Shown piece after piece: positions 19,432 through 20,664 of a stretch of DNA of 64,000 nucleotides (position 1 is the first letter of the stretch; each line of letters begins with the position of its first letter). The position numbers and the translations under genes are program-made. Source of the stretch: Escherichia phage ECO103 4-12-1. The DNA is taken from sequence record OR844650. The stretch is one strand, 5' to 3'. The notes below the pieces were generated by a model, which was not told the DNA's origin, did no database searches, and worked only from the letters and a program-made list of their open reading frames with translations.

Positions 19432-20664
19432 TTACTTATACCATTGCATTTCTCTAATATCAATGATAATTTTTGATGCTAACTTGATGTTTGGTTTTTT
19501 AGGAAGTACTGATTTCTTATATAGAACATCACGAATGTATTGTACTTTATCATCGAAATATTCTAATACTTCTTCATACTTCCATTTACCATTACGAATA
19601 TCCATCAACATTTGTGCATCTGGTCGTTTAACTTGAATAATTCCACTTTGTAATGCTTCTTCTGCACTATTCAAAAGTCGGATTGTGTGCATAGCATGTT
19701 TACAATCGTATCCGTGTTGTGATTCTAAAATAGCACGTTTGGCATTACGATTTTCTTTCCATTTATGATAACTTTTCCTATTCTCACTATTTTCCTGATA
19801 TTCTTTTTCGTTAAATTTGACAATTAGTTCTGGTTTGGTTTTCAACTCTTCAGTACTACGCTCTTTAGAAAAATAACGCAATGATCCATCACCGTTGATA
19901 GTGCTTTCATTCGGATTTTTAATAATCGCAAAAATGTTTTCTCCGTAATGAATTAGTTCATAACCATTATTAAAATTCAATAAATTGAAATCACGATCAA
20001 GAATTTTTTCAGTAGTGTAGTTATGCACTAATCTTACGAAATGATATTGCTTTAATGGATTTTTCGAAACTAACTGTAATGATGTATCACGCATATATTT
20101 TTCAAAATCAATCTTTTTAGCATTAAATGGATGTAAGTTGGATGTATCTAAACGTTCAACAAGATACTGTGGGAATGAATCATACATCCACGCAAGAACC
20201 TCATCGGCAGGGTGTTCTTCTAAAATCTCATTTAATCGTTTTTCAGCAATACGCTCTTTATCCATCCAACCGTGATGATTTGTCATACGCTTAATCTGAT
20301 TATATGCATATCCAGTATATGAAAATGCAATCTTAGAACTAAGAAGTTTTTGGTTAAATGAACGAAGATAGTCATAAATCTCAGTACTTTCCACAATGTG
20401 TTCAGGTTCAACCCAAAGTGATTCAAGAATATTAGGGTTAGCTTCAGTGTATAATTTTAAATACTGATTCAACTCATAGAATTTAGTATCTTCTTCGCTT
20501 TTGTCAGCTACCTCTTTGACCTTATAGAAGGGTGTAAGAATAAATTCTTTATTAGCAAGAAAAATACCACGATAATCAGTATCACTTTCCGGTGTACTGG
20601 TTCCGTAGGCTTGTGACCCAGCCAAGTGTTTCACTATTGTTTGTTCAATATATTGGTTATTCAT
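19432..20664 (-). CDS. Pol-beta superfamily nucleotidyltransferase
   Basis: GS-x10-DTD motif (AGSQAYGTSTPESDTDYRGIF); C-terminal KHAMHTIRLL block. Confidence 0.5.
   Translation of the reverse strand: MNNQYIEQTIVKHLAGSQAYGTSTPESDTDYRGIFLANKEFILTPFYKVKEVADKSEEDTKFYELNQYLKLYTEANPNILESLWVEPEHIVESTEIYDYLRSFNQKLLSSKIAFSYTGYAYNQIKRMTNHHGWMDKERIAEKRLNEILEEHPADEVLAWMYDSFPQYLVERLDTSNLHPFNAKKIDFEKYMRDTSLQLVSKNPLKQYHFVRLVHNYTTEKILDRDFNLLNFNNGYELIHYGENIFAIIKNPNESTINGDGSLRYFSKERSTEELKTKPELIVKFNEKEYQENSENRKSYHKWKENRNAKRAILESQHGYDCKHAMHTIRLLNSAEEALQSGIIQVKRPDAQMLMDIRNGKWKYEEVLEYFDDKVQYIRDVLYKKSVLPKKPNIKLASKIIIDIREMQWYK

What the first reader, a model, noticed from the sequence alone, without database searches (positions are those of the whole stretch)
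19432..20664. Large Pol-beta-superfamily nucleotidyltransferase of unclear function
The N-terminus has the GS-x10-DxD nucleotidyltransferase signature (AGSQAYGTSTPESDTDYRGIF). The 410-aa length and the C-terminal KHAMHTIRLL block suggest an added helical domain; an R-x6-H spacing (RAILESQH) could be HEPN-like, but this is speculative. Candidate roles are RNA repair or tailing alongside the Pnk/Rnl1/CCA toolkit, nucleotide-second-messenger chemistry, or a fused NTase-HEPN toxin-like module.
Basis: partly seen in the sequence, partly recalled or inferred. Interest (0 to 1): 0.45.

Follow-up and report, generated by a model that had tools for sequence, protein, structure and literature searches.

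The report
Phage RlaP RNA-repair nucleotidyltransferase, long form

Summary
The ORF is real but lies on the minus strand (19432-20664, 410 aa). The window is a 121Q/PBECO4-type jumbo coliphage, 99.7% identical to vB_Eco_slurp01, where this protein is already annotated "putative nucleotidyltransferase".

[quoted passage not shown] G16-S17, D28, D30 and D59 are invariant. The "KHAMHTIRLL" block holds the family-wide invariant K322/H326/R329 of the canonical RlaP C-terminal helical domain. The proposed HEPN R-x6-H is not conserved (H317 varies), so the toxin reading is rejected.

What makes the protein large is an inserted module (aa ~135-300). It models at high confidence and has no PDB structural relative.

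Bacterial RlaPs were shown in a 2025 preprint to add 1-2 NMPs to RNA 3'-OH ends, preferring cleaved-tRNA mimics. The window also encodes Pnkp, Rnl1, a CCA-adding enzyme and a PTH2-like hydrolase. In related phages the homolog clusters with CCA-adding enzyme, PTH2 and Thg1, and in bacteria with Ro60-RtcB-RtcA.

Most likely function: 3'-nucleotide restoration on damaged tRNA. This is a known kind of enzyme, of low to moderate interest.

The parts
19432..20664 (-). RlaP-family (PF10127) nucleotidyltransferase gene, 410 aa plus stop; long phage-type form (PHROG 388)
   Evidence: ORF. Pfam 6.4e-16. PHROG 388 2e-76. 100% identical to slurp01 'putative nucleotidyltransferase' and 99% to 121Q gp506 'nucleotidyltransferase'. 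AlphaFold model pLDDT 91.5, pTM 0.81.
20266..20664 (-). N-terminal Pol-beta NTase domain (aa 1-133), with G16-S17, D28-x-D30, third carboxylate D59, and N76-P77-N78/E81
   Evidence: Pfam match aa 13-131 to profile positions 24-144 of 249. Invariant residues. Strand/helix order fits the NTase fold. 38% identity to the minimal RlaP L061, E 8e-23.
20575..20619 (-). Catalytic signature G16-S17-x10-D28-x-D30
   Evidence: Invariant in 36 close to medium relatives and in 16 distant relatives, including T4-type NrdC.11 and cellular RlaPs.
20488..20490 (-). D59, predicted third metal-binding carboxylate, at the start of strand 60-64
   Evidence: Invariant. Secondary structure. [quoted passage not shown]
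20065..20265 (-). Clade-specific helical insertion (aa ~134-200), present in the Rak2/121Q/GAP32-like jumbo-phage clade and a few others
   Evidence: Gapped in all ~350-aa homologs in alignment A1. Helices 131-150, 154-163, 166-169, 187-199 in the model.
19765..20064 (-). Alpha/beta middle module (aa ~201-300) shared by ~350-aa phage-type and some cellular RlaPs, absent from minimal ~220-aa RlaPs; role unknown (inferred: RNA substrate recognition)
19435..19764 (-). C-terminal helical domain (aa ~301-410), the canonical RlaP helical domain
   Evidence: BLASTP of aa 313-404 against the minimal RlaP L061: 31% identity, E 9e-11. L061 matches the whole PF10127 model, positions 19-248 of 249, E 8.6e-36. 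Helices 286-409.
19678..19701 (-).
   Evidence: K322, H326 and R329 are invariant across phage, T4-type, cyanobacterial and planctomycete members. Inteins in at least 5 homolog clusters are inserted exactly between D320 and residue 321.
19714..19737 (-). R310-AILESQ-H317, the proposed 'R-x6-H'; not a HEPN motif
   Evidence: H317 varies even among close relatives. The segment is absent from minimal RlaPs.
20661..22665 (-). Four co-directional upstream ORFs of unknown function: 133 aa (PHROG 22376) and three paralogs of 169, 173 and 188 aa (PHROGs 7868/18641). The stop of the 133-aa ORF overlaps the RlaP start (ATGA).
   Evidence: Probably the same transcription unit (inferred).
22688..22728 (-). 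Terminator-like hairpin (22705-22728) overlapping a sigma70-like promoter TTGACG-17-TATAAT (22688-22716); candidate start of the unit that ends with RlaP
   Evidence: Consensus scan; pattern match only, not evidence of function.
5579..6691 (-). CCA-adding enzyme (tRNA nucleotidyltransferase), a genome-level partner
   Evidence: Pfam PolyA_pol head 4.2e-18 plus RNA-binding domain. PHROG 2244 1.1e-115. Its homologs lie just upstream of RlaP in 10 of 44 viral loci.
51988..52407 (-). PTH2-like peptidyl-tRNA hydrolase homolog, a genome-level partner
   Evidence: Pfam PF01981 2.1e-5, 25.2 bits against cut-off 23. PHROG 3668. Homolog of the 'hydrolase' next to RlaP in Av-05, pEp_SNUABM_01 and Vibrio phage D181.
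57077..58009 (-). Polynucleotide kinase-phosphatase (Pnkp), the end-healing partner
   Evidence: Pfam HAD_PNKP 8.6e-44 and AAA_33.
59106..60248 (-). T4 Rnl1-type RNA ligase, the sealing partner
   Evidence: Pfam RNA_lig_T4_1 1e-15 and T4_Rnl1_C 6.6e-17.

Best explanation
The gene encodes a phage-type, long-form member of the RlaP (PF10127) family of Pol-beta nucleotidyltransferases. The proposed mechanism is as follows.

1. [quoted passage not shown]
2. The invariant K322/H326/R329 helix face and the inserted middle module contribute to binding of the NTP and the RNA.
3. The enzyme adds one or two nucleotides, without a template, to the 3'-OH of a damaged RNA, most probably a tRNA trimmed by a host anticodon nuclease or another tRNase.
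4. This restores length, so the phage's own Pnkp and Rnl1 can heal and seal the break. The CCA-adding enzyme and the PTH2-like hydrolase deal with the 3' end and any attached peptide. Translation is thereby kept running during infection.

Shown here: family membership, conserved catalytic residues, fold, domain architecture, and genome and neighbourhood associations. Inferred: the actual substrate, the number of nucleotides added, the metal, and the role of the inserted module.
For: Family and active site:
- PF10127 E 6.4e-16; PHROG 388 'nucleotidyltransferase' 2e-76 over the full length.
- G16, S17, D28, D30, D59, K322, H326 and R329 are invariant across phage, T4 NrdC.11-type and cellular members.
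- The C-terminal domain is homologous to a minimal RlaP that covers the whole Pfam model.

Published biochemistry:
- Pseudomonas RlaPs add 1-2 NMPs to RNA 3'-OH ends. They do not act on DNA or protein, prefer Mn2+, favour the 5' half of a cleaved-tRNA mimic, and partly rescue aminoacylation of a tRNA missing one anticodon-loop nucleotide (PMC12776372).
- RlaP is reported as the most prevalent NTase in jumbo phages, with a distribution mirroring that of RNA ligases (PMC7824862).

Context:
- The window has Pnkp, Rnl1, a CCA-adding enzyme and a PTH2-like gene.
- Vibrio phage D181 has the co-directional cluster CCA - PTH2-like - RlaP - Thg1 - Rnl1 - Pnkp. Locus L117 has CCA - PTH2-like - RlaP - kinase - Rnl1.
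- A 43%-identical cellular homolog lies in a Ro60-RtcB-RtcA locus (L010), and another lies beside Ro60-RtcB (L081).
- Av-05 also encodes an RNA ligase family protein.
Against: - No activity has been measured for any phage RlaP. The characterised enzymes are short Pseudomonas forms from a different similarity cluster, and that work is a preprint.
- In this genome RlaP is not in an operon with the ligase or kinase (37-39 kb away). Its immediate neighbours are unknown ORFs and tail-fibre-like genes.
- Across 44 viral loci with at least 5 kb of flank on both sides, Rnl1 (1/44) and Pnkp (2/44) are rarely within 10 kb. CCA-adding enzyme (10/44) and Thg1 (7/44) are more common neighbours. This points to tRNA but not specifically to the pre-ligation step.
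- The ~165-aa inserted module has no known structural relative and could change substrate or activity.
- Untemplated addition restores the correct nucleotide only in a fraction of products, a weakness the authors themselves note.
Confidence: 0.62

Rival explanations
1. Same chemistry, different site. The phage long-form RlaP repairs the tRNA acceptor end rather than the anticodon loop. It would add back 3' nucleotides upstream of CCA (for example the discriminator base) on tRNAs trimmed by acceptor-stem or 3'-end tRNases. The CCA-adding enzyme then rebuilds CCA, a Thg1-like enzyme repairs the 5' strand, and PTH2 removes any attached aminoacyl or peptidyl group.
For: - A CCA-adding enzyme lies 0.6-2.8 kb upstream on the same strand in 10 of 44 viral loci.
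- A Thg1 homolog (Pfam 5.5e-30) lies 2.2-3.5 kb upstream in all 7 GAP32-like jumbo-phage loci.
- A PTH2-like gene lies between CCA and RlaP in Av-05, pEp_SNUABM_01, D181, L009 and L117.
- Rnl1 and Pnkp are much rarer neighbours.
- The window genome keeps CCA, PTH2-like and RlaP, though dispersed.
Against: - Linkage with tRNA-end enzymes is also expected if all tRNA-repair genes simply cluster; D181 and L117 include Rnl1 and Pnkp in the same cluster.
- The bacterial enzymes disfavoured the 3' end of the 3' tRNA half when it was annealed (PMC12776372).
- Probe-based counts are lower bounds obtained with few probes.
- No Thg1 is found in this window.
Confidence: 0.2
2. RNA tailing for regulation or decay rather than repair. 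The enzyme marks host or phage RNAs with short 3' tails to alter their stability or processing.
For: Bacterial RlaPs label rRNA, full-length tRNA and fragments with any of the four NTPs, so specificity is low (PMC12776372). In this genome the gene is not in a repair operon.
Against: Only 1-2 nucleotides are added, which is poor as a decay tag. The recurrent linkage is with repair and tRNA-end enzymes, in both phages and bacteria.
Confidence: 0.07
3. Primer-independent synthesis of an oligonucleotide or nucleotide signal or decoy, HalB-like or CD-NTase-like. For example, it could interfere with a host signalling defence.
Against: - No sequence similarity to HalB or any other PDB chain, even with a profile at E<=10.
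- No PADLOC hit.
- The Foldseek match to a CD-NTase is only E 1.4.
- No RlaP structure appeared among the PDB matches, so HalB is simply the nearest solved KNTase-like fold.
- Pfam places the protein in RlaP.
Confidence: 0.04
4. One reading: a fused NTase-HEPN toxin-like module, or a protein or small-molecule adenylyltransferase (MNT, DrrA or KNTase-like).
Against: - H317 of the R-x6-H is not conserved, and minimal RlaPs lack that segment.
- No conserved R-x4-6-H occurs elsewhere in the domain.
- Generic helical bundles (CheA P1, designed proteins) score the same as the HEPN structures.
- Bacterial RlaPs did not label E. coli proteins (PMC12776372).
- No PADLOC toxin or defence hit.
Confidence: 0.03

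Closest known systems
Pseudomonas fluorescens / P. aeruginosa RlaP (PF10127; Carruthers, Fatma & Huang, bioRxiv Dec 2025, PMC12776372)
   Same: Same Pfam family. Same layout of N-terminal Pol-beta NTase domain plus C-terminal helical domain ending in a terminal helix. Three invariant aspartates. Association with RNA-repair genes.
   Different: The query has ~165 extra residues (aa ~135-300) inserted between the two domains. The Pfam model aligns directly only to its N-terminal half. The gene is in a phage and is not in an RtcB operon. No biochemistry exists for this form. The PfRlaP sequence and structure were not available here for direct superposition.
Phage T4 NrdC.11 (RB3_098 used here), an uncharacterised RlaP of T4-like phages
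   Same: PF10127 hit (3.1e-11). Shares G-S, D-x-D, the third Asp and the K-x3-H-x2-R motif. It is also encoded by a phage that has Pnkp and Rnl1.
   Different: Only ~28% identity, and only over the first ~150 residues. It is 336 aa with a different middle region. It falls in a different similarity-network cluster (PMC12776372).
PHROG 388 nucleotidyltransferases of Vequintavirinae, Mydovirus-like Klebsiella phages and Vibrio phages (e.g. Av-05 gp62, D181 gp118)
   Same: Full-length homologs at 34-44% identity with the same alpha/beta middle module. This is the same family in the narrow sense.
   Different: They are ~350 aa and lack the ~65-aa helical insertion (aa ~134-200). Their genes lie directly downstream of a CCA-adding enzyme and a PTH2-like gene, whereas in this genome the three genes are dispersed.
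HalB of the Hailong defence system (PDB 9dbh/9dbj) and KNTase/ANT(4') (1kny)
   Different: No detectable sequence relationship. They act on different substrates (dATP polymerisation; aminoglycosides). TM-scores are only 0.2-0.3.
Class II CCA-adding enzyme (the phage's own, window 5579-6691)
   Same: Template-independent Pol-beta NTase acting on RNA 3' ends. Encoded in the same genome, and often the adjacent gene in related phages.
   Different: A different Pfam family (PF01743) with different body and tail domains. It adds a defined CCA sequence, whereas RlaP adds 1-2 nucleotides with little base specificity.

Membership tests
RlaP (Pfam PF10127) | Match to the family HMM above the curated gathering score | tested here: met
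   59.2 bits against a cut-off of 23, E 6.4e-16, aa 13-131. All but one (a truncated 287-aa protein, P0087) of the 120 listed close homologs carry a precomputed PF10127 hit.
RlaP (Pfam PF10127) | Pol-beta NTase catalytic signature: G-[GS], x9-13, D-x-[DE], plus a third carboxylate | tested here: met
   G16-S17-x10-D28-x-D30 and D59 are invariant in alignments A1 (36 sequences) and A2 (16 distant sequences).
RlaP (Pfam PF10127) | C-terminal helical domain homologous to that of canonical short RlaPs | tested here: met
   Not aligned by Pfam directly. However, aa 313-404 match the minimal RlaP L061 (E 9e-11), which itself covers PF10127 positions 19-248 of 249. K322/H326/R329 are invariant family-wide.
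RlaP (Pfam PF10127) | Association with RNA ligase / RNA-repair genes, the basis of the family's name | tested here: met
   Met at genome level only for this phage: Rnl1 and Pnkp are in the window but 37-39 kb away. At operon level it holds in relatives: D181 and L117 (Rnl1, Pnkp), and L010 and L081 (Ro60-RtcB(-RtcA)). Rare as an immediate neighbour overall.
RlaP (Pfam PF10127) | Enzymatic addition of 1-2 NMPs to RNA 3'-OH ends, favoured by Mn2+ | not testable with these tools
   Known only for PfRlaP and PaRlaP (PMC12776372). Needs purified protein.
HEPN RNase domain | Conserved R-x4-6-H catalytic motif | tested here: not met
   In R310-x6-H317 the His is variable (H/Y/N/F/L/K). The segment is absent from minimal RlaPs, and no other conserved R-x4-6-H exists.
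HEPN RNase domain | HEPN-type four-helix bundle fold | tested here: inconclusive
CD-NTase / cGAS-like signalling NTases | Sequence or fold match to CD-NTases, or to a known defence or anti-defence model | tested here: not met
   No PADLOC hit at E<=1. The only CD-NTase in the Foldseek list is at E 1.4, TM 0.09.
HalB (Hailong) oligodeoxyadenylate synthase | Sequence homology to HalB | tested here: not met
Class II CCA-adding / poly(A) polymerase family (PF01743) | Match to the PolyA_pol head domain | tested here: not met
   Only PF10127 is reported at E<=1. The phage's true CCA-adding enzyme is a separate gene.

The most novel reading that the evidence does not exclude
The long phage-type RlaP, with its inserted module that has no solved structural relative, may be specialised for repairing the tRNA acceptor end. 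It would form a conserved functional triad or tetrad with the CCA-adding enzyme, a PTH2-like hydrolase and (in GAP32-like phages) Thg1. Together these would rebuild both strands of an acceptor stem trimmed by host tRNases. That would be a repair pathway distinct from the classical Pnkp/Rnl1 anticodon-loop healing and sealing, and distinct from the published 'fill the gap before ligation' model for RlaP.
Probability: 0.2. Interest if true: 0.55.

Novelty: new member of a known kind. Interest (0 to 1): 0.3.

Why it matters
As it stands, this is a correct but unsurprising annotation upgrade, from "nucleotidyltransferase" to an RlaP-family RNA 3'-end repair NTase. It adds one more piece to the tRNA-repair toolkit that jumbo phages carry against host tRNA-cleaving defences.

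The points of modest value are:
- The phage-type RlaPs form a large, uncharacterised structural variant with an extra, confidently folded module that has no PDB relative.
- Their preferred neighbours in phages are tRNA-end enzymes (CCA-adding enzyme, Thg1, PTH2) rather than ligases. This gives a directly testable hypothesis about which tRNA lesion they repair.
- Inteins mark the K-H-x2-H motif as a critical site.

A biochemical test on this or a related phage protein would extend the single existing preprint on bacterial RlaPs to the viral side of the conflict.

Tried and rejected
- NCBIfam: no hit at E<=1.
- PADLOC: no hit.
- PDB sequence searches with the single protein and with the A1 profile: nothing relevant. 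The only hit was a spurious ribosomal protein L22 at E 0.08. The PfRlaP crystal structure therefore could not be used for comparison.
- Foldseek against PDB: only weak hits (best E 0.022), though all were Pol-beta NTases.
- AFDB50 fold search: library unavailable.
- hhalign of A1 against the second RlaP paralog of L081: aligned only the N-terminal domain, probability 87%. The C-terminal homology was established through L061 instead.
- Burroughs & Aravind 2016, the original RlaP description, is not held in the library. Its content is cited only through PMC7824862, PMC6514570 and PMC12776372.
- The literature search for NrdC.11 found no functional study.
Its hits were confirmed by Pfam only for L010 and L081.
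- Neighbour counts rest on a handful of tblastn probes and are lower bounds.
- HEPN-toxin, second-messenger, AMPylase and aminoglycoside-NTase readings were considered and rejected, for the reasons given under the rival explanations.
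Full report
**Observation**

The coordinates 19432-20664 hold a 410-aa ORF, but on the minus strand; the plus-strand translation is riddled with stops.
- G16-S17-x10-D28-T-D30, within AGSQAYGTSTPESDTDYRGIF
- R310-AILESQ-H317
- K322-HAMHTIRLL

The window (about 29-36% G+C, genes almost all on the minus strand) is 99.7% identical over 6 kb to Escherichia phage vB_Eco_slurp01. It is about 98-99% identical to PBECO4, 121Q and other Asteriusvirus jumbo coliphages. In those records the identical or 99%-identical protein is annotated "putative nucleotidyltransferase" or "nucleotidyltransferase" (121Q gp506).

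**Family assignment**

- Pfam gives a single hit, PF10127 "RlaP, RNA repair pathway DNA polymerase beta family". It scores E 6.4e-16 and 59.2 bits against a cut-off of 23, covering aa 13-131 and profile positions 24-144 of 249.
- PHROG 388 ("nucleotidyltransferase") matches the full length at 2e-76.
- NCBIfam and PADLOC give nothing.
- The family is very large. It has 844 word-indexed homologs, with PF10127 precomputed for all but one (a truncated protein) of the 120 listed. An exhaustive profile search finds 10,441 50%-identity cluster representatives at E<=1e-3 and 1,883 at E<=1e-30. There are 635 phage GenBank records with a tblastn match.

**Conserved residues**

In a 36-sequence alignment (A1, 40-86% identity to the query) the invariant residues include G16, S17, D28, D30, D59, N76-P77-N78, E81, W302, R306, N307, R310, E314, D320, K322, H326, R329, R347, D349 and R357.

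A second alignment (A2) added Vequintavirinae and Vibrio-phage homologs, the T4-type NrdC.11, and twelve cellular homologs from cyanobacteria, Planctomycetota, Bacteroidota and gamma-proteobacteria. There the invariant set shrinks to G16, S17, S27, D28, D30, D59, Y119, Q123, K322, H326 and R329.

Three conclusions follow:
- The catalytic triad expected of a Pol-beta NTase is intact.
- H317 of the proposed R-x6-H is variable even among close relatives, and the whole segment is missing from minimal family members. It is not a HEPN motif.

**Architecture**

Cellular relatives found in species genomes match the query in two blocks, aa ~5-134 and aa ~286/313-405. The shortest forms are about 220 aa. 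One of them (L061) covers the entire PF10127 model (positions 19-248 of 249, E 8.6e-36). It aligns to the query at both ends: 38% identity at E 8e-23, and 31% identity at E 9e-11 for aa 313-404.

The query is therefore a canonical RlaP, consisting of an NTase domain and a helical domain as in the published PfRlaP crystal structure (PMC12776372), with about 165 residues inserted between them. The insertion has two parts:
- An alpha/beta module (aa ~201-300) shared by all ~350-aa phage-type members and some cellular ones.
- A further helical segment (aa ~134-200) restricted to the Rak2/121Q/GAP32-like jumbo phages and a few others.

**Structure**

- The AlphaFold model built from A1 is confident (pLDDT 91.5, pTM 0.81).
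- Foldseek against the PDB returns only weak matches, but all the top ones are Pol-beta NTases: KNTase/ANT(4'), HalB, 3c18, LinB, AAD(9) and MNT.
The HEPN resemblance is at most a bundle-level similarity without the catalytic motif.

**Context in this genome**

- The RlaP start codon overlaps the stop of an upstream 133-aa ORF (ATGA). Before that come three paralogous ORFs of unknown function (PHROGs 22376, 7868, 18641).
- A sigma70-like promoter and a hairpin lie at 22688-22728. A perfect TTGACA-17-TATAAT lies just downstream of the RlaP stop.
- The window also encodes a CCA-adding enzyme (5579-6691), a PTH2-like hydrolase (51988-52407), Pnkp (57077-58009) and Rnl1 (59106-60248). Further genes are an ATP-dependent DNA ligase, two calcineurin-like phosphoesterases, a PIN-PhoH protein, SIR2 and ClpP.
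- The association with RNA-repair genes holds at genome level, not operon level.

**Context elsewhere**

- Vibrio phage D181 carries the co-directional cluster CCA-adding enzyme - PTH2-like "hydrolase" - RlaP - Thg1 - Rnl1 - Pnkp.
- The Vequintavirinae phages Av-05 and pEp_SNUABM_01 carry CCA - PTH2-like - RlaP. Av-05 has an RNA ligase family gene elsewhere in the genome.
- Among 44 IMG/VR loci with at least 5 kb of flank on both sides, tblastn probes find the following within 10 kb (Pfam confirmation):
  - CCA-adding enzyme in 10 loci, always upstream, on the same strand and within 2.8 kb
  - Thg1 in 7 loci, all GAP32-like jumbo phages
  - PTH2-like in 5 loci
  - Pnkp in 2 loci
  - Rnl1 in 1 locus
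  - RtcB in none
- In bacteria, a 360-aa homolog that is 43% identical to the query lies beside Ro60 - RtcB - RtcA in a Thioalkalispiraceae MAG (L010). A Thermoguttaceae MAG has Ro60 - RtcB followed by two tandem RlaPs (L081).
- The link to RNA repair, and specifically to tRNA, is therefore robust. In phages the tightest partners are tRNA-end enzymes.

**What is known**

RlaP was named by Burroughs & Aravind (2016; not held here) for its association with RNA ligases. It was predicted to restore nucleotides lost from cleaved RNAs before ligation. Iyer et al. 2021 call it the most prevalent NTase of jumbo phages, with a distribution that mirrors RNA ligases, and they also describe phage PTH2 (PMC7824862).

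Carruthers, Fatma & Huang (bioRxiv, Dec 2025; PMC12776372) studied two Pseudomonas RlaPs and reported the following:
- They add one or two NMPs (or dNMPs) to RNA 3'-OH ends.
- They do not act on DNA or protein.
- They prefer Mn2+.
- They favour the 5' half of a cleaved-tRNA mimic.
- They partly restore aminoacylation of a tRNA lacking one anticodon-loop nucleotide.
- They place T4 NrdC.11 in the family but give no phage biochemistry.

**Conclusion**

[quoted passage not shown] Membership in RlaP is near-certain.

The main open alternative (about 0.2) is that the phage long form works on the acceptor end together with the CCA-adding enzyme, Thg1 and PTH2, rather than on the anticodon loop before Rnl1. 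The toxin/HEPN, signalling, AMPylation and tailing-for-decay readings are unlikely.

Novelty is low. The gene is already annotated and the family is described in jumbo phages. The only new elements are the uncharacterised inserted module, the neighbour statistics and the intein insertion site.

Noticed in passing
Homologs P0121, P0122, P0124, P0131, P0132, P0138, P0145, P0094 (insertion point corresponds to window 19702-19707, between D320 and C321): About 660-760-aa RlaP homologs carry a ~330-aa insertion. In the five read at the junctions (P0121, P0124, P0132, P0145, P0094) it sits exactly between 'GYD' and '[T/C]KHAMH'. It starts with Cys, ends in Gly-Asn and is followed by Thr or Cys, which is the signature of an intein. 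P0122 has a LAGLIDADG domain. The site abuts the family-invariant K322/H326/R329 motif.
   Followed up: partly
L002 (Av-05) 2931-7047; L003 (Vibrio phage D181) 2601-12700; L004 2542-7047; L009 4332-7059; L117 7858-15681; L093-L099 (GAP32-like): There is a recurrent co-directional cluster, CCA-adding enzyme - PTH2-like hydrolase - RlaP, in several unrelated phage lineages. A Thg1 gene lies 2-3.5 kb upstream of RlaP in all seven GAP32-like jumbo-phage loci. In the window these genes are dispersed, and Thg1 is absent from the window.
   Followed up: partly
window 19247-19431: Most relatives (PBECO4, 121Q, phAPEC6 and others) carry about 3.4 kb here, between the RlaP gene and the ACP-like gene. 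In 121Q this holds two 'tail fiber' genes and a small ORF (gp507-509). The window and slurp01 lack them, leaving a 185-bp spacer: a strain-level indel in tail-fibre content.
   Followed up: no
window 19266-19319 (-): A perfect sigma70 consensus promoter (TTGACA-17-TATAAT, 12/12) is immediately followed by a 10-bp-stem hairpin with a T-run, just upstream of the ACP-like ORF (18827-19246). The promoter-then-hairpin arrangement is unexplained; it could be a 5'-UTR structure or a terminator for the RlaP unit.
   Followed up: no
window 21065-22665 (-): Three tandem paralogous ORFs (169, 173 and 188 aa; PHROGs 7868/18641) of unknown function lie upstream of RlaP, together with a 133-aa ORF (PHROG 22376). 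They are weakly related to ORFs at the same position in GAP32.
   Followed up: partly
L081 5983-7381: A Thermoguttaceae MAG has two tandem, divergent RlaP paralogs directly downstream of Ro60 and RtcB. One is a minimal form, and the other is 249 aa and matches the full PF10127 model (1.2e-41).
   Followed up: no
window 50789-52407 (-): The PTH2-like ORF (51988-52407) overlaps by 4 nt the start of a 400-aa ORF of unknown function (PHROG 14061). That ORF directly precedes the ATP-dependent DNA ligase (49359-50777) and a calcineurin-like phosphoesterase (48548-49351). This may be a second nucleic-acid repair cluster.
   Followed up: no
window 35279-36250, 38516-39955, 41193-41951 (-): Other conflict-type genes are nearby: a WGR-domain protein, a PIN-PhoH fusion (predicted RNase plus ATPase) and a SIR2-family protein.
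   Followed up: no
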